A program made the translations under genes and the position numbers. A stretch of DNA of 38,465 nucleotides from Ilumatobacter sp. GTDB taxonomy: Bacteria > Actinomycetota > Acidimicrobiia > Acidimicrobiales > Ilumatobacteraceae. The stretch is from NCBI GenBank assembly GCA_035641795.1, contig DASQTR010000023.1, forward strand, positions 1 to 38,465. The letters are read 5' to 3'. Position 1 is the stretch's first letter; the number at the start of each line of letters is the position of its first letter. Of the stretch, positions 1,455 to 38,465 are shown piece by piece. The notes beneath the pieces were generated by a model that was not told the DNA's origin, did not search any database, and was given only the letters and a program-made list of their open reading frames with translations.

Positions 1455-1501
1455 GCGACGCTGAGGCCTCGGACCCGGCGGTGGTCGGGCCTCAGCGTCG
1501 C
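1455..1501. terminator. 14-bp GC-rich hairpin between convergent genes, probable bidirectional terminator
   Basis: GCGACGCTGAGGCC (1455-1468) is the exact reverse complement of GGCCTCAGCGTCGC (1488-1501); it lies between the stops of ino1 and the surface protein. No U-tract. Confidence 0.65.
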
Positions 1502-1512
1502 GAACTGTTACA

Positions 1513-4218
1513 TCACGACCTGAGCCGGCGACGGCGGTCGACTGCCGCCAACGCGAACCCTGCGAACACAAGGCCCGCAGCGATCGCGACCCGGTTCCAG
1601 ACGTAGCCACCCGTGGGCGGCAGCACCGCGATCTGAACGGTGATCGGCTCCGGATCCTGGTTGTTGCTGGTCGTCGTCTCGGTCGTTGTCGTCGACACGA
1701 CCGCGATGTTGTTGATGGTCGTGCCGGCAGCGGCGGCTGCCACCGTGGTCGACAACGTGAAGGTCCCCGACTCGTTGACCCCCATCGTCGGCTTCGTGCA
1801 CGACAGTTTGCCCGGGTTGCCGGTCACGCTGCCGGAGCAGTCCCAGCCGGCCGGTGCCGTGAACGACACGAGCGTCAGCGCCGCCGGCAGGCTGTCCACG
1901 ATGGTGGCGTTGTCCGCCGGGTTGGGGCCGTTGTTCGTGACGACGAGCGTCCACGTCACGTTGCCGCCGGGCGTCACGACCGTCGGCGTCGCCGTCTTGA
2001 CGACGGCGATGTCGGCGATCGGCGGCGCCTGCTGCTCGACCACATCGTTCGTGATCGCACATGTCACGGCCTGACCGGCAGCGGGCGTGAAGGACGACGC
2101 ACCCACCGTGTTGGTGCCGCCGGTGCAGGTCAACGTCCCGGTGATGAACCCGGCGACGTTGGTCTCCGTGATCGTGTAGCTGGTGCCGGGCACGAGCCCG
2201 TCCCAGCCGACCGTGGGCGCCGCATTCGTAGCCGACTTGGTCGCCGTCTCGCCGGCCGGGACCGGAGCGATGGTGAAGTCGAACGACCACATGACGGCAT
2301 TACCGGCCACCGTCTTGGTGACGTCGACGCTCGCCGCCGGCAGGGTGCAGGTGATGTCGACGGCCGCGCTGTCGGACAGGTCCGTATCGGGCCCGGTCAG
2401 CGTCGCCGTGTTGGTCTCCGTCCGCTGGTTCGTGAAGTTCGTGTAGTCGGACGAAATCCCCGAGCAACGGAAGGTCTCGTCGTAGTCGAACGTCGTCGAC
2501 GACGAGATCGCCTTCGGGAACTGTCCTTCGGTGTCACGATCGTCGTCCACCGTGACGGTGTCGTCGCCGATCACGTTCTCGGTGAACGAGACCGCTACCG
2601 TCGCCGTCTGGTCCGGGTTGCCCGACACTGACACCGTGGCCGTGTTGAGCGTCGCCGAATCGTCCTCGGGCAGCGCCGTGTACTGACACGTCATCGCTCC
2701 GTCCGCCGGCAGCGTGCCGAAGCTCTGATTTCCAGCCGTGGTCGCATCACAATCGACGGCGGCGACGGTGCCGTCGTTGAGCACGTCGGTCACTGTGAAC
2801 GACTGCGGAACCCCAGTCGGGTTGTCGATCGTGATCGAGCCCGTGACCCTGTAGTTGCCGAGCGTCTCGGTCTTCGTCGCCACGACGGTCCACGTCGACG
2901 TGCCGGCGGCATTACCCGCCGTGCCGCTGTGGCTGGTCGGCGCGACCGACTTCTCCAACGTCCACTCGATCGTGCGGTCATAGGTGCCCGCGGCCGTCTT
3001 CGTGGCAGTGACGGGCGCCAGCGAGCATGTGACGGTGACCGTTGCGGAATCGGACAGATTGGTGTTGTCGCCCGTCAACGTGGCGGTGTTCGGGTAGGTG
3101 TCGACGTCAACGCCGTTCGTGTAATCGGCAGGGTTCGACGAGCAAGGGAACGTCTCGTCGTAGTCGAACGTCGTCGAAGTGGAGATTCCGTCCGGGAACT
3201 GGCCCTCGCTGTCGCGATTGTCGTCCACCGTGACGGTGTCGTCGCCGATCACGTTCTCGGTGAACGAGACCGGCGCCGTCGCCGTGACCGCGCCGATCGC
3301 GGAATCAGTCGGTGTCACCACGGCCGTCACCAATGTCGCCAGATCGTTCGCCGGCGTCACCGCATACGTGCAGTTGACGCTTCCGTTGGCGGGCGCAGTG
3401 CCCTCGTTGGGGGTGACGCTGCCCGCGCAGTTCACCGTCACCGGTATCCCGCCGGTGAGCGACTCGGCGACGGCGAAAGCAACGGGAAAGTTGTTGCCGT
3501 TTGTGACGGAGACCGTGCCAGTCACCTGGAAGTTGGAGAGCGTCTGGATCTTGCTGGCGACCACCGTCCACGTCGATGTGCCGGCATCCTCGCCGGCTGC
3601 ACCGGCGTGGCTGGCGGGCGTGACCGACTTGTCCAACGACCACGTGATCGTCCGGGTGAACGTCGCAGTCGCGGTCGTCGTCGCCTGGAGCGCAACCGGC
3701 GGCCGCACAGCTGACAGACAGAAGTCGAGATGACTCACGTCTTGATACGAGTCACCCGATATGTAGCCACTGTGCAACCCGGTGTCGGAGCTGACCGCAC
3801 CGCTGTTCGTCGCCCCCGCTACCGGCGGCGCATACTGGTACAGCAGATAGTTCGAGCCCTTGACGAAGACGTGCGCGGCGACGCCATTGTCGATCGCGAA
3901 GTCGAATGTGTTGTCGGCGTGAACCGTCAGCGTGACGGTCACCGTCGTGCCGCCGATGTCGTAACTTCTCGAGGCTGTCCCTGTCTCGACGCCCTGCGTC
4001 ACGCTCTGGAACTGGTCCTTTACCAGGGTCGTCCCCACGGGACAAGCGCGGTCACCAGGAAACTCCTTTTCCTGTGGGGTCACGTGATGCGTGGTCGTCG
4101 GCGCCAGCGAGCTGGCTGCACTGACTGGCGCCGGCGCCACTCCAACCAGGACACCACTCAACGCGACGATCCCGGCCAACGCGCGCAGCCGGGAAGAGCC
4201 CTGTCTCGGTCCGCCCAT
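1513..4218 (-). CDS. Large secreted cell-surface protein/adhesin with tandem Ig-like repeats, DUF11-like domain and LPXTG sorting signal
   Basis: ATG at 4218 preceded by AGGAGG (4230-4225). Signal peptide ...LAGIVALSGVLVGVAPAPVSA; two ~226-aa repeats; ADIAVVKTATP..WTLVVTNNGPNPADN DUF11-type domain; C-terminal LPPTG, hydrophobic helix and RRRRLRS tail. The ORF-track start at 4722 is an over-extension. Confidence 0.85.
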   Translation of the reverse strand: MGGPRQGSSRLRALAGIVALSGVLVGVAPAPVSAASSLAPTTTHHVTPQEKEFPGDRACPVGTTLVKDQFQSVTQGVETGTASRSYDIGGTTVTVTLTVHADNTFDFAIDNGVAAHVFVKGSNYLLYQYAPPVAGATNSGAVSSDTGLHSGYISGDSYQDVSHLDFCLSAVRPPVALQATTTATATFTRTITWSLDKSVTPASHAGAAGEDAGTSTWTVVASKIQTLSNFQVTGTVSVTNGNNFPVAFAVAESLTGGIPVTVNCAGSVTPNEGTAPANGSVNCTYAVTPANDLATLVTAVVTPTDSAIGAVTATAPVSFTENVIGDDTVTVDDNRDSEGQFPDGISTSTTFDYDETFPCSSNPADYTNGVDVDTYPNTATLTGDNTNLSDSATVTVTCSLAPVTATKTAAGTYDRTIEWTLEKSVAPTSHSGTAGNAAGTSTWTVVATKTETLGNYRVTGSITIDNPTGVPQSFTVTDVLNDGTVAAVDCDATTAGNQSFGTLPADGAMTCQYTALPEDDSATLNTATVSVSGNPDQTATVAVSFTENVIGDDTVTVDDDRDTEGQFPKAISSSTTFDYDETFRCSGISSDYTNFTNQRTETNTATLTGPDTDLSDSAAVDITCTLPAASVDVTKTVAGNAVMWSFDFTIAPVPAGETATKSATNAAPTVGWDGLVPGTSYTITETNVAGFITGTLTCTGGTNTVGASSFTPAAGQAVTCAITNDVVEQQAPPIADIAVVKTATPTVVTPGGNVTWTLVVTNNGPNPADNATIVDSLPAALTLVSFTAPAGWDCSGSVTGNPGKLSCTKPTMGVNESGTFTLSTTVAAAAAGTTINNIAVVSTTTTETTTSNNQDPEPITVQIAVLPPTGGYVWNRVAIAAGLVFAGFALAAVDRRRRLRS

Positions 4219-4319
4219 CGAAAGCCTCCTGTTGCTGTCGGTCCGCGACCGCACAGCCTCACGAAGACAGCAAGCCGACCTCAACGCCGCCGACGAACCG
4301 CTCCACTGAACTTGGTTCA

Positions 4320-4399
4320 GCTGGCGTGCGGTTTCGCCACTCGCTCGACGGGAACCTGGCGACCAAATGTCGGTTCCCGCGTCATCACGTTCCGCCTGC
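4320..4399 (-). ncRNA. Cyclic di-GMP-II class riboswitch aptamer (candidate)
   Basis: Minus strand GGC-GGAA-CG-UGAUGAC-GCGGGAACC-GACA-UUUGG-UCGCC-A-GGUUCCCGU-CGA-GC-GAGU-GGCGA-AACC-GCACGCC. It shows GGAA, a kink-turn-like UGA/GA pair, a 9-bp stem, a UUGG loop with a 6-bp pseudoknot (UCGCCA/UGGCGA), then AGU and AACC, in the order recalled for the c-di-GMP-II consensus. Located in the 5' UTR of a surface protein. Confidence 0.75.
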
Positions 4400-4407
4400 T
4401 GTCGCCG

Positions 4408-4436
4408 AGTTTGCACGGACGTGACGCAATCGTCAA
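4408..4436 (-). promoter_or_regulatory. Sigma-A-like promoter for the riboswitch/adhesin transcript
   Basis: TTGACG (4436-4431), 17-nt spacer, CAAACT (4413-4408); predicts a start near 4401-4403, just before the aptamer. Confidence 0.55.
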
Positions 4437-5601: not shown

Positions 5602-6000
5602 GTGACCACCCAGAGGCGACTCGCCGCCTACGCGCTCGGTCTCGACGTCCTGTCGGTGATGGTGTTCGTCGCTGTGGGCCGGCGCAGCCATGACGAAGGT
5701 TCCGCTGTCGCCGGTGTGCTCGAGACCGCTGCGCCGTTTCTTATCGGCCTCGGTGCCGCCTGGCTGATCGTGCGCGCCTGGCGGTGGCCGATGGCGCTCC
5801 TCACCGGTCTTGGCATCTGGCCGATCACGTTGCTCGTCGGGATGATGTGCCGCAACCTCATCTTCGGGCGCGATACGCCGGCCAGCTTCGTGATCGTTGC
5901 GACGATCTTCCTCGGCCTCTGCTTTGTCGGCTGGCGCATGGCGGCGCGTGTGCTCGCGCGGCGGCGTCAGAGCTCGGCGCTCACAGCGCGGCGGGCGTGA
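5602..6000 (+). CDS. DUF3054 family membrane protein
   Basis: DV..V.VFVAVGRRSH, TAAPFLIG and SFVIVA..FLG...GWR pattern; four hydrophobic segments. Confidence 0.8.
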   Translation: MTTQRRLAAYALGLDVLSVMVFVAVGRRSHDEGSAVAGVLETAAPFLIGLGAAWLIVRAWRWPMALLTGLGIWPITLLVGMMCRNLIFGRDTPASFVIVATIFLGLCFVGWRMAARVLARRRQSSALTARRA

Positions 6001-7360
6001 TCCGCACCACCTCGTTGGCGAGGCTCCGAACGAGCCAGACCGAGCCGTCGCCGGCTATCGCCATGTCGCCCTGATCAGCGGTGGTCGTCAACGTCCCGAT
6101 CTCTTCGAGCGTGACCGGGTCGAGGACATGCAGGTTGTTGGGTGTCGTCTTCGTATCGACGAGCACACCTGCGCCGCTCACCGCGAGCCCAGTGGGCAAC
6201 GTCGGCTCTCCGGAGCGCTCGAGCGGCGCGCCGAGGGCGGCGCTCGTCCGCTGCTCGCCGGTGCTCAGGTCGGTGCGGGTCACCGTGCCGGTCACGCGGT
6301 CATGGAGATACGTGGCGCCGCCGTACAACGCCGCTCCGGCTATGTCGTCGAGGCCGCTGACTTCGTGCAGCACGGTGCCATCGGTGGTGTCGATGGCCGC
6401 TGCCTCTCCGCCGAGCTGGTTGACGACGAGCAGCACCTCACCCTCGACTCGCAGTAGGTCGGGGCGGACCGGCACGTCGAACCTCGCCGTGATCGTGTCG
6501 GTCGATGGATCGATCCGCATCACGACGCCGGCCTTGTCGCCCACCCAGACAGCATCGCCGCTCGACGCGATGCCGCCGACCTGCGCGAACGACCTTGCGG
6601 CGCCGGGGAGCATCGGCTGGCGATAGCTGTTCTCCAGGATCTCGACACCGGTCGCGATGCGGGCGACTTCGGTGCCGTCGACCAGATCGAGCCGGATGAC
6701 GTCACCCCCGATGGCGTCGGCGACCCAAACGGCGTCGGCGTCCACCGCGAATGGAGATGACTCTGGCACGGTCGCCCGCGCCACGATCTCGCCTGTCTCG
6801 CTATCGAGTCGGACGAGCTCGCCTGCGAGCGACGACACCCACACGTCGTCGGCCGCCCCGACGAAGTAGGGATTGCTCCCCGGATCGACTGCGAACGCGT
6901 CGACGGTCGCGCCGGCGAACGTGGCCTGGAGGGCGGGAACGGTCGTCGCCACCGCCACCTGGCTCGTCGTTTCGACCTCGGCGGGGTTCGTCGTCTCGAC
7001 CGCGACTGGGCTCGTCGTCTCGACCGGCGCAGGGGCGGTGGTCGCGTCCGGGACGGTGTCGGTGGCCGGTGATTCGCCATCGCGCTGCGCGAGCACGAGC
7101 GCCGTTACGACGCCGCCTGCGACGAGTACGACGGCCGCAGCCTTCAACCACGTACGACGGTCGTGCTTCGGGTCGGCTGGGGTTCTGGTCAGGGTCTGCA
7201 ACTCGATCACCTCCGGGTTCGAGAGTGGGTGTGGATCTGGAGCGGTCTCGGCACGCAGCTCGGCGGCAAGGCGCGCCCGCAGACGGGCCTCGAAGTCGGG
7301 GGCAGGCGGGCTCGGCTCGGGCAACTGGCCGAGGAGCTCTTCGATCGATCGCTCAGGCAT
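5981..7360 (-). CDS. Probable membrane anti-sigma factor with extracytoplasmic beta-propeller domain
   Basis: Overlaps the ECF sigma stop. Cytoplasmic N-terminus (PDFEARLRARL), one TM helix, Thr-rich linker with 8-aa VETT repeats, repeated VWV..G.V.R.D blades (YncE/Vgb-like). Confidence 0.65.
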   Translation of the reverse strand: MPERSIEELLGQLPEPSPPAPDFEARLRARLAAELRAETAPDPHPLSNPEVIELQTLTRTPADPKHDRRTWLKAAAVVLVAGGVVTALVLAQRDGESPATDTVPDATTAPAPVETTSPVAVETTNPAEVETTSQVAVATTVPALQATFAGATVDAFAVDPGSNPYFVGAADDVWVSSLAGELVRLDSETGEIVARATVPESSPFAVDADAVWVADAIGGDVIRLDLVDGTEVARIATGVEILENSYRQPMLPGAARSFAQVGGIASSGDAVWVGDKAGVVMRIDPSTDTITARFDVPVRPDLLRVEGEVLLVVNQLGGEAAAIDTTDGTVLHEVSGLDDIAGAALYGGATYLHDRVTGTVTRTDLSTGEQRTSAALGAPLERSGEPTLPTGLAVSGAGVLVDTKTTPNNLHVLDPVTLEEIGTLTTTADQGDMAIAGDGSVWLVRSLANEVVRITPAAL

Positions 7361-7901
7361 CGGCGGTCTCCTCGAACGCGGCGCGGAACTTGCGGCGAGC
7401 GCGCGCCAGTAAGGATTCGGTTGCGCGCGTGCTGCGCCCGATCGAGTCGGCGACGTCGGCCACCGACATCCCATCGAGGTGGTGCATCACCAAGGCGCAG
7501 CGCTCGGCTTCGGCCAGCTCGCTCAGCGCCCTCTCGGTCGCGGCGCCCATGTCCACCGCCGGGTCATCGACGGTGATGCCGCGGCGCGCGCTCGATTCGG
7601 CGGCCGACCACGCCATCGACAGCTTGCGCTCACGGCGCTGTTGCGCTCGCATGTGGTCGATCAGCCGGCTGCGCGCGACGGTGATCAGCCAGCCCGTCGT
7701 GAACCCGCTGAGTTCATCGCCGCGCCGCACCCGCCGTACCAGGTCGACGTACACCTCTTGCGTGAGGTCTTCGGCGGTCTGCCTGTCGCACCGGCGGAGC
7801 AGGAAGCCGTAGACGTGTGGCAACGAGGCGTCGTACAGCTGCCAGAACCTGGCCTCCGCGGACGAGGCGTCGTGCCCGACCGACGCCAGATCTTCGCTCA
7901 C
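7353..7901 (-). CDS. ECF-family RNA polymerase sigma factor
   Basis: AEDLTQEVY and WLITVAR region 2; GMSVADVA..IGRS..ATESLLARARRKFR region 4. Confidence 0.92.
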   Translation of the reverse strand: MSEDLASVGHDASSAEARFWQLYDASLPHVYGFLLRRCDRQTAEDLTQEVYVDLVRRVRRGDELSGFTTGWLITVARSRLIDHMRAQQRRERKLSMAWSAAESSARRGITVDDPAVDMGAATERALSELAEAERCALVMHHLDGMSVADVADSIGRSTRATESLLARARRKFRAAFEETADA

Positions 7902-8800: not shown

Positions 8801-10078
8801 TCAGCTCTCTTGAAGGGCGCGGACTCGTTGTCGGGCGCGTTCGCAGGTGTCGTGCATGACACGTTCTCGCCGGGTGTTCGACCTGATCTGGATCGGCACG
8901 GTCGCGAACAGGTCACCGTCACGTTGTCGAATCGTCAGCAGTCGATCGGGCGCGAGGTGGAGGCTCCACCCACCTTCGTGGACGACGTGATGGTGATGGC
9001 TGCAGATCGGGATCAGATTCGCGAGATCGGTGGGGCCACCGACCTCCCAGGGGACGAGGTGATGGATCTCGCAGCGGTTGAACGGGACGTCGCAGCCGGC
9101 GAAGCCGCACGTGCGGTACATCGCGCGCAGGGCCCGGCGTTGGACCCGGCTGGCGAGGCGCTGGTCGCGGCCGAGGTCGAGCGGAACACCGTCGGCACCG
9201 ACGAAGATCGGCACGAGCACGCCCTGACAGCACAGGCGGCGCACCGTCTCTGGCGGGAGCGGCACGCCGTTGTCGTACTCGCAGACTGAGTCGTCGTGCA
9301 GGCCGTCGGTGAGCGTGGCTACGTCGATCACGACGCTGATCTCGGCCTCGATCGGACGCACCTGCTGATGTCCCCCGATCGCCAGGTTGGCGAGGGCCTG
9401 GGCGGCGAGGTGCTGGCGGTCGGCGGCTCGATCGCCGCCGGCGGCGACCGACGCCTCGACCTCGAGGTCGATCGCCTTGAACAAGGCCGCACCCAGCTCG
9501 GGATGGAACACGCCCGAGATGTGATGCATCCCGTGGACGTCGATGCGCCGCGAGAGGTGGGTTTCGCGACGTTGCCGCTCCGCGCGTTCGATGCCCTGGT
9601 CGTGTTCGATCTTGGTGAGCAGCCGCTTGCAGCGACGCCGGAAGTCTTCCGGTGAAGACGCCTTCGCGTCGGACAGAAGCTCGGCCTCGTGCTCGAGGAA
9701 CGACGTCTTGGTCGCTTCGTCGAGCTTGGCCGTCGCGTTGGCGAGGGCGTCGGCATGCTCTGCTCCGACCGCGCCGGCAGCGAGCGCATCGGCGAACGAG
9801 GGCGCTTCGTCAAGCGCCTTGGAGCGGCGATCCCTCCGGCGCCCCTCCGCGGCCGACACACCTTGCGATCGACTGAGTGCCTCGGCGGCAGGGGCGCCTG
9901 ACCCGGCGGCGTAGAGGCGGTTGATCTGGGCGCTCAACGAGGCCTCGAACGAATCCAGCCAACCGCGCAGCACACGCAAGCGGCTGCCGGCATCGACCGT
10001 TCCGGCGACGTCCAACGCCGTGACATCACACACCATCAGGCCGGCGAGGGCCAGGCTCGGATCGGCGGTGCGTGACAT
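8801..10078 (-). CDS. DUF222 (13E12 repeat family) protein with C-terminal HNH endonuclease
   Basis: Helical N-terminus; PLDLGR.QRLAS..QRRAL; C.F.GC...C.IHH..PW..GGPTDLANLIPICSHHH..VHEGGW HNH motif. Confidence 0.88.
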   Translation of the reverse strand: MSRTADPSLALAGLMVCDVTALDVAGTVDAGSRLRVLRGWLDSFEASLSAQINRLYAAGSGAPAAEALSRSQGVSAAEGRRRDRRSKALDEAPSFADALAAGAVGAEHADALANATAKLDEATKTSFLEHEAELLSDAKASSPEDFRRRCKRLLTKIEHDQGIERAERQRRETHLSRRIDVHGMHHISGVFHPELGAALFKAIDLEVEASVAAGGDRAADRQHLAAQALANLAIGGHQQVRPIEAEISVVIDVATLTDGLHDDSVCEYDNGVPLPPETVRRLCCQGVLVPIFVGADGVPLDLGRDQRLASRVQRRALRAMYRTCGFAGCDVPFNRCEIHHLVPWEVGGPTDLANLIPICSHHHHVVHEGGWSLHLAPDRLLTIRQRDGDLFATVPIQIRSNTRRERVMHDTCERARQRVRALQES

Positions 10079-37736: not shown

Positions 37737-38465
37737 TCAGCCGACGCCGGCGGCGGCGAGGCGGGAACGCAGGTGCAGCACCGACTTGGTGTGGATCTGC
37801 GAGACGCGACTCTCCGTGACGCTGAGCACCTGGCCGATCTCGGCAAGCGTGAGGCCCTCGTCGTAGTAGAGCGAGAGGACGAGTTTCTCGCGCTCGGGGA
37901 GGCGCTTGATCTCGGCGCGCATGATGTCGCGCAATTCACGGTCTTCGGTCGCCGCCACCGGCGACTCCATGCCGACCGATGTCATCGCCTCGGGCTCGTA
38001 ACCGGCGGCAACCGCACGGTCGAGTGGGCCGATCGTCGTGGCCGCGATCGACGCCAACCACTTCGCCAGCTCCTGGGCGTCGATGCGCAGATGAGCCCCC
38101 AGCTCCTCGTCGCTGGGCGATCGACCGAGCGAGTGCTCGAGCTCGGAGAAGGCGCGCTCGACCTCGCGGGCACGGCTGCGCACCGAGCGCGGCACCCAGT
38201 CGAGCTGGCGCAGGCCGTCATAGATGGCGCCCCTGATGCGGGGCGCCGCGAACGTCTCGAACTTGACGCCGCGGTCGGGATCGAAACGGTCGATGGCATC
38301 GATCAGGCCGAACACGCCTGAGCTCACGAGATCACCCGGGTCGACGCTGCTCGGGAGCCCGGCACCGACACGACCGGCCACGAACTTCACGAGCGGGGAG
38401 TAATGGACGATCAGATGATCGCGAGAGGCCGTGTTCTTGCGTTGCAACCAACGCGTCCAGTGCAT
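37737..38465 (-). CDS. whiG: FliA/WhiG family sigma factor (start may lie beyond the window)
   Basis: LIVHYSPLVKFVAGRV..GLP, KFETFA..RIRGAI.D.LR..DWVPRSVR, LYYDEGLTLAEIG.VL.VTESRVSQIH; same neighbourhood as Streptomyces whiG. Confidence 0.88.
   Translation of the reverse strand: MHWTRWLQRKNTASRDHLIVHYSPLVKFVAGRVGAGLPSSVDPGDLVSSGVFGLIDAIDRFDPDRGVKFETFAAPRIRGAIYDGLRQLDWVPRSVRSRAREVERAFSELEHSLGRSPSDEELGAHLRIDAQELAKWLASIAATTIGPLDRAVAAGYEPEAMTSVGMESPVAATEDRELRDIMRAEIKRLPEREKLVLSLYYDEGLTLAEIGQVLSVTESRVSQIHTKSVLHLRSRLAAAGVG

What the first reader, a model, noticed from the sequence alone, without database searches (positions are those of the whole stretch)
1513..4436. Candidate c-di-GMP riboswitch-controlled, sortase-type adhesin module in an Acidimicrobiia-like actinobacterium
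Seen: promoter, c-di-GMP-II-like aptamer, switchable leader, AGGAGG and a 901-aa LPPTG surface protein form one self-contained unit, bounded by hairpins and set between housekeeping genes. Established: c-di-GMP-II riboswitches switch on adhesins and pili in Clostridioides difficile, whereas actinobacterial c-di-GMP signalling is known mainly through protein effectors (BldD, RsiG-WhiG). Inference: an RNA-level c-di-GMP switch for surface attachment in this lineage, which I do not recall being described.
Basis: partly seen in the sequence, partly recalled or inferred. Interest (0 to 1): 0.85.

Follow-up and report, generated by a model that had tools for sequence, protein, structure and literature searches.

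The report
Riboswitch ahead of actinobacterial surface adhesin
An RNA sensor of the known c-di-GMP-II riboswitch clan sits directly in front of a long surface-protein gene and likely switches on this predicted wall-anchored adhesin when c-di-GMP is high; the same sensor occurs in about a third of sampled genomes of this little-studied actinobacterial class, so this is a real but widespread arrangement rather than a one-off.

Summary
A c-di-GMP-II-clan aptamer lies at 4401-4318 (-): RF03169 54.5 bits (cut-off 40), RF03170 53.0, canonical RF01786 49.3 (below its 53.5 cut-off). It keeps the canonical U37:A69/A70/G73 pocket, but its P1 top is atypical. A 100-nt leader can refold into an anti-aptamer (coupling -14.6 vs -4.0 kcal/mol in shuffles). 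AGGAGG follows, then a 901-aa all-beta protein: signal peptide, two unnamed repeats, SpaA-like, CLIPPER/DUF11, LPPTG tail. The genome has 11 GGDEF, 8 EAL and 5 sortase matches, plus WhiG and RsiG. The module is an accessory insertion between ino1 and a 5-FTHF cyclo-ligase gene. ON/OFF direction, promoter and ligand are unproven, and the 5' hairpin is not conserved. It is no one-off: 54 of 151 class genomes and 39 of 151 phylum genomes carry the aptamer, and in pattern-found loci it mostly precedes secreted proteins. A published survey already counts 77 c-di-GMP riboswitches in Actinomycetota. I found no experimental study. This scan found the arrangement before on other DNA. Verdict: new member of a known kind. 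Best side lead: a sister family whose only cyclase candidate is a REC-GGDDF protein.

The parts
4408..4436 (-). Candidate sigma-A-type promoter TTGACG-17 nt-CAAACT; predicted start about 4403-4400
   Evidence: Sequence; not called by the consensus scan; similar sites lie 40-100 nt before the aptamer core in 28 of 119 loci vs 3 of 119 in a distal control window
4318..4401 (-). c-di-GMP-II-clan aptamer (CL00127) with canonical pocket A13 (4390), U37 (4365), G39 (4363), A61 (4341), A69/A70/C71/C72/G73 (4333-4329); atypical P1 top and C at position 74 (4328)
4291..4311 (-). Anti-aptamer strand GUUCAGUGGAGCGGUUCGUCG, predicted to pair with P1 3' strand, pocket and P4 3' strand in the ligand-free fold
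   Evidence: Folding; coupling control
4263..4275 (-). Switch strand GCUUGCUGUCUUC: predicted to pair with the P1 5' strand (4403-4394) plus SD core when free, or with GACAGCAA (4239-4232) when P1 is held
   Evidence: Folding (prediction only)
4225..4230 (-). Shine-Dalgarno AGGAGG, 6 nt before ATG
   Evidence: Sequence
1513..4218 (-). 901-aa secreted, predicted sortase-anchored fibrillar surface protein
4114..4218 (-). Signal-peptide-like N-terminus (about residues 1-35)
   Evidence: Sequence; hydropathy 2.48; no dedicated predictor run
3709..4101 (-). Unnamed N-terminal beta domain (residues about 40-170, Cys59/Cys167); candidate tip domain
   Evidence: AF2 model; no Pfam family; Atlas first hit 0.85, hypothetical, a lead only
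2341..3684 (-). Two tandem unnamed repeats of about 222 aa (179-400, 402-626), 55% identical, predicted beta-rich stalk
   Evidence: pLDDT mostly above 90; Atlas clusters hypothetical, score 0.94
2047..2325 (-). SpaA-like prealbumin-fold domain (632-724), below Pfam cut-off
1654..2013 (-). DUF11/CLIPPER domain (736-855) with invariant K741, D775, N837
   Evidence: Pfam E 2.5e-20; VIA-align Z 13.6, rmsd 2.5, 120 aligned to 9IFR
1516..1623 (-). LPPTG sorting signal, transmembrane helix, basic tail
   Evidence: Sequence
1455..1501 (.). Strong hairpin between convergent ino1 and adhesin genes, likely a shared terminator
   Evidence: z -6.4, z -4.3 on the + strand

Best explanation
This is a class II cyclic-dinucleotide riboswitch aptamer in the leader of a gene for a long beta-rich surface protein, and it likely binds c-di-GMP and likely turns on translation of this predicted sortase-anchored adhesin. 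Shown: the aptamer, its conserved pairings and pocket bases, the SD, the ORF anatomy, and the cyclases, phosphodiesterases and sortases in the genome. Inferred: transcription would start at the aptamer's 5' end and P1 would form first. Without ligand, strand 4311-4291 would unzip the aptamer. The freed P1 5' strand would then capture GCUUGCUGUC (4275-4266), and CUUC (4266-4263) would cover the GGAG core of the SD. With c-di-GMP bound, P1 would hold, the switch strand would pair with GACAGCAA just upstream of the SD, and the SD would be easier to open. The protein would be exported, anchored by one of the unlinked sortases and displayed on a stalk of repeats. My odds: functional c-di-GMP riboswitch about 0.8, translational about 0.75, ON about 0.65, wall-anchored about 0.85, adhesive about 0.65.
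For: Three clan models hit the same 84 nt. 9 of the 13 ligand-contact bases listed for PDB 3Q3Z (PMC7288161) are identical under my mapping, and three of the four differences are in covarying pairs. In 36 homologues 92% of cells pair, and 13 of 17 pairs change on both sides; slid controls pair at 37-50%. P1 is predicted until about 4312 and is then displaced. Coupling energy is -14.6 vs -4.0 +/- 3.2 kcal/mol; 1 of 100 shuffles matched it. There is no intrinsic terminator in the leader. Across 63 homologous leaders the real aptamer blocks the RBS more than shuffled aptamers in 38 (Wilcoxon p 0.004, kin not independent). 95 of 125 downstream ORFs have a hydrophobic N-terminus vs 142 of 800 background ORFs; Pfam hits include SpaA/SdrD/Ig, S8 protease, camelysin/TasA-like and sugar transferases. 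G000 has 7 proteins with an intact GGDEF motif among 11 matches, 8 EAL and 5 sortases with catalytic His/Cys. The four C. difficile class II switches are ON switches, two of them ahead of sortase-anchored adhesins (PMC6366702).
Against: Direction is not resolved for this leader. The RBS is harder to open in the free fold in 23 of 25 settings for the -15..+3 window, but in only 11 of 25 for an SD-sized window and 10 of 25 for -20..+13. The free-state value (9.4) lies inside the shuffled-aptamer range (8.5 +/- 1.2; 15 of 60 at least as high). The P1-closing G-C pair found in 31 of 36 homologues is missing, and position 74 is C (4 of 128 pattern hits). RF01786 is below cut-off. No ligand-binding domain was identified in the protein. 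There are no RNA reads over the leader. GGDEF co-occurrence does not discriminate: 46 of 46 carriers vs 16 of 17 non-carriers.
Confidence: 0.58

Rival explanations
1. Same aptamer and ligand, but an OFF switch or control at transcription: with P1 held, GAGGUC/GGCUU extend the downstream hairpin over the SD and spacer, or the long hairpin acts as a U-less or Rho-linked terminator.
For: In constrained folds the SD is mostly paired in the bound ensemble too (unpaired probability 0.10-0.18). One bound-state MFE buries SD and spacer in a long hairpin. 12 of 63 homologous leaders lean OFF by more than 1 kcal/mol.
Against: The isolated SD hairpin is no more stable than shuffles (z -0.61). No terminator was called in the leader. 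The family trend and C. difficile precedent are ON.
Confidence: 0.22
2. A decaying or very weak aptamer: the accessory gene arrived with its leader, and the P1-junction changes have cut affinity so expression is constitutive or set by a protein regulator at the repeats over the promoter.
For: Atypical P1 top and C74; single copy in G000; the module is absent from the ino1 locus of 29 genus relatives; CGTCACGT repeats and a palindrome overlap the -35.
Against: All core pocket bases and all P2-P4 pairs are intact. A strong anti-aptamer is present. A strain 99.1% identical has no change in 4416-3526 while the adjacent upstream DNA is rearranged; this is weak evidence, as only about 1% divergence is expected.
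Confidence: 0.12
3. The aptamer senses another cyclic dinucleotide (3',3'-cGAMP, c-di-AMP or an unknown one), as the best-scoring models are the pocket-variant families.
For: Best scores are to the variant models RF03169 and RF03170; the ligand tests in the paper that defined them could not be read.
Against: The window has the canonical U37:A69/A70/G73 set, not C37:G69 or C70. G000 has ordinary GGDEF cyclases and lacks the REC-GGDDF enzyme.
Confidence: 0.08

Closest known systems
Rfam clan CL00127: c-di-GMP-II (RF01786), c-di-GMP-II-GAG (RF03169), c-di-GMP-II-GCG (RF03170)
   Same: Same P1-P2-kink-P3 scaffold and P4 pseudoknot; passes the cut-offs of RF03169 and RF03170; canonical pocket bases
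   Different: Below the RF01786 cut-off; lacks the G69 of the GAG consensus and the G69/C70 of the GCG consensus; atypical P1 junction and C74
C. difficile Cdi-2-3/CD2831 and Cdi-2-1/CD3246 (class II switches ahead of sortase-anchored adhesins; PMC6366702, PMC11477304)
   Same: Class II aptamer directly ahead of a sortase-substrate surface protein
   Different: Different phylum; no intrinsic terminator or group I intron here, so control is likely at the SD; unrelated adhesin domains
CLIPPER (DUF11, PF01345) fibrillar adhesins (bioRxiv 10.1101/2025.04.25.650565; PDB 9IFR)
   Same: Signal peptide, repeated beta-rich stalk, CLIPPER domain with conserved Lys/Asp/Asn, LPxTG anchor
   Different: Stalk is built mainly of an unnamed 222-aa repeat; N-terminal domain has no known adhesive family
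Actinobacterial protein effectors RsiG-WhiG and BldD (PMC10118264)
   Same: Same messenger; RsiG and WhiG homologues are present in this genome
   Different: Here the sensor is the mRNA itself; BldD was not searched

Membership tests
c-di-GMP-II clan CL00127 | Covariance-model match over a family cut-off | tested here: met
   RF03169 54.5 vs 40; RF03170 53.0 vs 47.9
c-di-GMP-II clan CL00127 | P2, P3 and P4 pseudoknot pairings with covariation | tested here: met
   All P2/P3 pairs form; P4 UCGCC/GGCGA; covariation in 36 homologues
c-di-GMP-II clan CL00127 | Canonical P1 closing pair and purine at position 74 | tested here: not met
   A-A mismatch at the P1 top and C74; these positions vary in the family
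c-di-GMP-II clan CL00127 | Binds c-di-GMP and changes expression | not testable with these tools
   Needs probing and reporter assays
c-di-GMP-II (RF01786, canonical) | Score of at least 53.5 bits | tested here: not met
   49.3 bits, E 1.2e-9
c-di-GMP-II (RF01786, canonical) | Pocket bases A13, U37, G39, A61, A69, A70, C71, C72, G73 | tested here: met
   numbering from PMC7288161 mapped by me onto the consensus with a constant offset of one
c-di-GMP-II-GAG (RF03169) | G at position 69 (with C37); my reading of the consensus, defining paper not read | tested here: not met
   Window has U37:A69; filed at clan level only
c-di-GMP-II-GCG (RF03170) | G69 and C70; my reading of the consensus | tested here: not met
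   Window has A69, A70
Sortase substrates | LPxTG + hydrophobic helix + basic tail, N-terminal export signal | tested here: met
Sortase substrates | Cognate sortase in the genome | tested here: inconclusive
   5 sortases with His/Cys, none adjacent; which one acts is unknown
CLIPPER fibrillar adhesins | CLIPPER/DUF11 fold with isopeptide Lys, Asp, Asn | tested here: met
   Pfam, Z 13.6 to 9IFR, K741/D775/N837 invariant in 12 sequences; bond geometry not checked
CLIPPER fibrillar adhesins | Recognised adhesive domain at the tip | tested here: inconclusive
   N-terminal domain unnamed; whole-model fold search barely tested it
C. difficile-type transcriptional class II ON switch | Intrinsic terminator in the leader | tested here: not met
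   None called between 4318 and 4218

The most novel reading that the evidence does not exclude
Deep-branching Actinomycetota run a surface and matrix regulon through class II riboswitches of two pocket types that read two different signals. The U37:A69 type, as in this window, reads c-di-GMP. The C37:G69 type, kept in a family whose near-complete genomes often have no ordinary cyclase, no EAL and a single conserved REC-GGDDF enzyme, reads a different cyclic dinucleotide made by that enzyme.
Probability: 0.1. Interest if true: 0.85.

Novelty: new member of a known kind. Interest (0 to 1): 0.45.

Why it matters
Experimental c-di-GMP work in Actinomycetota has centred on Streptomyces and Mycobacterium (PMC10746217) and on protein effectors. 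If this switch works as predicted, it is a compact, testable example of RNA-level c-di-GMP control in a class where about a third of sampled genomes use the same aptamer, with secreted stalk proteins, TasA-like proteins, proteases and sugar transferases as typical downstream genes. It would point to the attachment and biofilm genes of abundant uncultured bacteria, most of them unannotated, and supply GC-rich, likely translational class II switches. The logic itself (class II switch ahead of a sortase adhesin) is known from C. difficile, so the advance is in range and platform, not in kind.

Tried and rejected
Papers that define the families (Weinberg 2017 PNAS, Smith 2011 PNAS, Lee 2010 Science) are not held, so what they say about the ligand and taxa of the GAG/GCG variants was not seen. 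The supplement of McCown 2017 could not be read; it may show c-di-GMP-II in Actinobacteria. The sigma-70 scan found no promoter. The 5' hairpin was rejected as a boundary. Single-sequence folding was poor (pLDDT 41). Whole-protein Foldseek gave only generic Ig-repeat matches with TM at most 0.15, and the repeats and tip domain were barely tested, so no claim of a new fold is made. No further aptamer copy was found in G000, which is 90.5% complete. The c-di-GMP-I search rang nowhere, controls included, so it is uninformative. Sequencing runs were contigs only, with one RNA contig over 3900-4031 and nothing on the leader or the start. The idea that C37:G69 aptamers always go with the REC-GGDDF enzyme failed: several C37:G69 carriers lack it (f76 0 of 4, G486, G246, G273, G338) and U37:A69 carriers of f45 have it (5 of 5). 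GGDEF presence does not separate carriers from non-carriers. Homologues of the repeat region in two family genomes have no upstream aptamer; a distant metagenome homologue has a sub-threshold one (33 bits).
Full report
Observation. The whole-window Rfam scan gave one hit: 4401-4318 (-), c-di-GMP-II-GAG (RF03169), 54.5 bits against a cut-off of 40. The same bases score 53.0 with RF03170 (cut-off 47.9) and 49.3 with canonical RF01786 (cut-off 53.5, E 1.2e-9). No second copy was found in the 90.5%-complete genome by these models or by my own profile. AGGAGG (4230-4225) lies 6 nt before ATG 4218, and the ORF runs to 1513, giving 901 aa. The 3' hairpin (1501-1455) is strong. The 5' hairpin is weak and is partly deleted in a 99.1%-identical metagenome contig whose bases 4416-3526 are unchanged. 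The promoter TTGACG-17-CAAACT is below the scan threshold. It would start RNA at the aptamer's 5' end, and similar sites lie 40-100 nt before the aptamer core in 28 of 119 loci with enough flank, against 3 of 119 in a distal window.

Which aptamer. A review lists the contacts in PDB 3Q3Z as A13, A14, U37, G39, U60, A61, C68, A69, A70, C71, C72, G73, A74 (PMC7288161, passages). These map onto the RF01786 consensus with a constant offset of one; the mapping is mine. The window keeps 9 of 13. Positions 14, 60 and 68 differ as parts of covarying pairs. Position 74 is C, seen in 4 of 128 pattern hits. The P1-closing G-C pair is absent. Across fetched loci, positions 37 and 69 covary: U:A in 95 and C:G in 82 of 183 distinct matches (kin not independent). 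The window is U:A, the canonical type, so I file it at clan level and not as the GAG variant, even though that model scores best. In an alignment of 36 aptamers, 92% of cells pair and 13 of 17 pairs change on both sides, against 37-50% paired for slid controls.

Expression platform. Equilibrium folds at growing lengths show P1 until about 4312 and then displacement by strand 4311-4291, which pairs with P1, the pocket and P4. Aptamer-leader coupling is -14.6 kcal/mol versus -4.0 +/- 3.2 for shuffled leaders (1 of 100 as low). In the free fold the P1 5' strand takes GCUUGCUGUC and CUUC covers GGAG. With the aptamer held, that strand pairs with GACAGCAA upstream of the SD. No intrinsic terminator lies in the leader, and Actinomycetota favour translational platforms (PMC12452182, passages). 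Direction is not settled. The free fold is harder to open in 23 of 25 settings for one RBS window but in only 11 and 10 of 25 for two others, and 15 of 60 shuffled aptamers block as much. At family level I took 64 of 125 ORF-called loci (filters: SD strength, leader up to 130 nt, hydrophobic N-terminus, no long insert) and could score 63. The real aptamer blocked the RBS more than its shuffles in 38 (p 0.004, overstated by kinship). I therefore favour ON, modestly.

Protein. Pfam finds DUF11 at 736-855 and weak SpaA-like hits at 632-724. Two 222-aa repeats are 55% identical. An AF2 model from 67 sequences has mean pLDDT 82 and is almost all beta. Its last domain matches the CLIPPER domain 9IFR (Z 13.6, rmsd 2.5, 120 residues), tied with pilin domains. 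CLIPPER domains typically form stalks of fibrillar adhesins (bioRxiv 10.1101/2025.04.25.650565, abstract and passages). The repeats and tip domain match only hypothetical clusters. The 164 homologues have varied termini, many without a sorting signal. G000 has a 70%-identical paralogue cut by a contig end, and six ORFs pass my LPxTG filter, one doubtful. Adhesion is inferred from architecture, not shown.

Context. Ino1 is 80% identical to that of an Ilumatobacteraceae MAG and 60-67% to two other Acidimicrobiia (3 of 5 genomes matched), so the lineage is likely Ilumatobacteraceae. The 5-FTHF cyclo-ligase gene lies within 1.5 kb of ino1 in 16 of 29 genus loci (11 of the 15 closest), and none carries this adhesin. 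The repeat region is found in 4 of 201 family genomes. The module is thus an accessory insertion. G000 has 11 GGDEF matches, 7 with the intact motif, 8 EAL, 5 sortases, a FliA/WhiG sigma factor at the window's end and RsiG.

Distribution. RF03169 matches 7 of 41 relatives, 54 of 151 class genomes (47 over cut-off) and 39 of 151 phylum genomes (37 over cut-off). These draws are even across groups and only part of the candidates was scored, so they are not species frequencies. One non-carrier (G244) is unpublished; it affects only denominators. Rfam confirmed the pattern site in 19 of 20 Acidimicrobiia loci and 15 of 20 others tested. 95 of 125 downstream ORFs have a hydrophobic N-terminus versus 142 of 800 background ORFs (heuristic starts). 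I scanned 62 of them with Pfam: many had no family; hits include SpaA/SdrD/Ig domains, five S8 proteases, two camelysin/TasA-like proteins and sugar transferases.

What is known. In C. difficile four class II switches are ON switches, two ahead of sortase-anchored adhesins (PMC6366702, PMC11477304, passages). Ten full-text searches (nine on the riboswitch or c-di-GMP) listed no study of a class II switch in Actinomycetota. Most hits were seen as listings only. Table S14 of PMC12452182 counts 77 c-di-GMP riboswitches among 10,982 in that phylum, six models pooled. The papers defining the class and its variants were not available, and they or their supplements may already list actinobacterial examples. 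Two earlier notes of this scan describe the same arrangement in other Acidimicrobiia.

Side lead. In family f19 of the same class, 13 of 15 genomes carry the aptamer, and the best hits I read are C37:G69 type. Nine of the 13 carriers, 94-100% complete, have a single weak GGDEF match. In the five examined it is a REC-GGDDF protein that keeps the Asp/Lys/Asn/Asp catalytic pattern, and four of those five lack EAL. A GGDDF enzyme can be active (PMC8835794, passages). The simplest reading is a one-enzyme c-di-GMP system. A different ligand is possible, but the enzyme and the pocket type do not track each other elsewhere.

Verdict. A real riboswitch-adhesin unit and a new member of a known kind. Most likely it is a c-di-GMP translational ON switch (0.58 for the whole chain). 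Interest 0.45: valuable as a testable entry to an unstudied class-wide regulon, but neither the RNA nor the logic is new.

Noticed in passing
L208-L212 (G453, G413, G493, G260, G427; family f19): Near-complete genomes with C37:G69 aptamers whose only GGDEF-like protein is a conserved REC-GGDDF enzyme, next to rpe in the loci where the neighbour was read; 4 of 5 lack EAL. A minimal c-di-GMP system or another signal.
   Followed up: partly
L017, L023, L025, L042, L043, L048, L093: Long-insert aptamer variant (30-45 extra nt with GCACGGAGA in the P3 loop) in Frankiales/Actinomycetes; several precede a 72-85 aa secreted peptide followed by an Lrp/AsnC-like gene.
   Followed up: no
window 4458-4415: Direct repeats CGTCACGT(T/C)CGT 32 bp apart and a palindrome TGACG-N4-CGTCA over the candidate -35; the GTCACGT cores are kept in strain L148. 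Possible operator.
   Followed up: no
window 37737-38465 and G000:C50:1653-2117: FliA/WhiG sigma factor beside an M23 peptidase and rpsB-tsf, and a two-repeat RsiG elsewhere: protein-level c-di-GMP control likely coexists with the riboswitch.
   Followed up: partly
L007 and L013, upstream of the aptamers: Sigma-28-like sites (TCAAG/TAAAG ... CGAT) seen by eye; some of these switches may be transcribed by WhiG, stacking two c-di-GMP layers.
   Followed up: no
L050, L045, L073/L074, L087-L089, G309, G486: Several aptamers in one locus, one per gene, ahead of clustered secreted-protein genes; L013 precedes a TasA-like gene followed by a SipW-like peptidase.
   Followed up: no
L220, L222, L229: The ino1 / cyclo-ligase junction holds other accessory envelope genes in other genus members, suggesting an insertion hot spot.
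   Followed up: partly
G000:C73:17568-18854: Paralogue 70% identical with the same LPPTG tail; its 5' end and leader are cut off by the contig end.
   Followed up: partly
L034: Pattern match in a euryarchaeal chromosome; no Rfam hit at cut-off.
   Followed up: partly
window 8801-10078 and 5981-7901: DUF222-HNH gene; an ECF-type sigma factor followed by a membrane-anchored beta-propeller protein.
   Followed up: no
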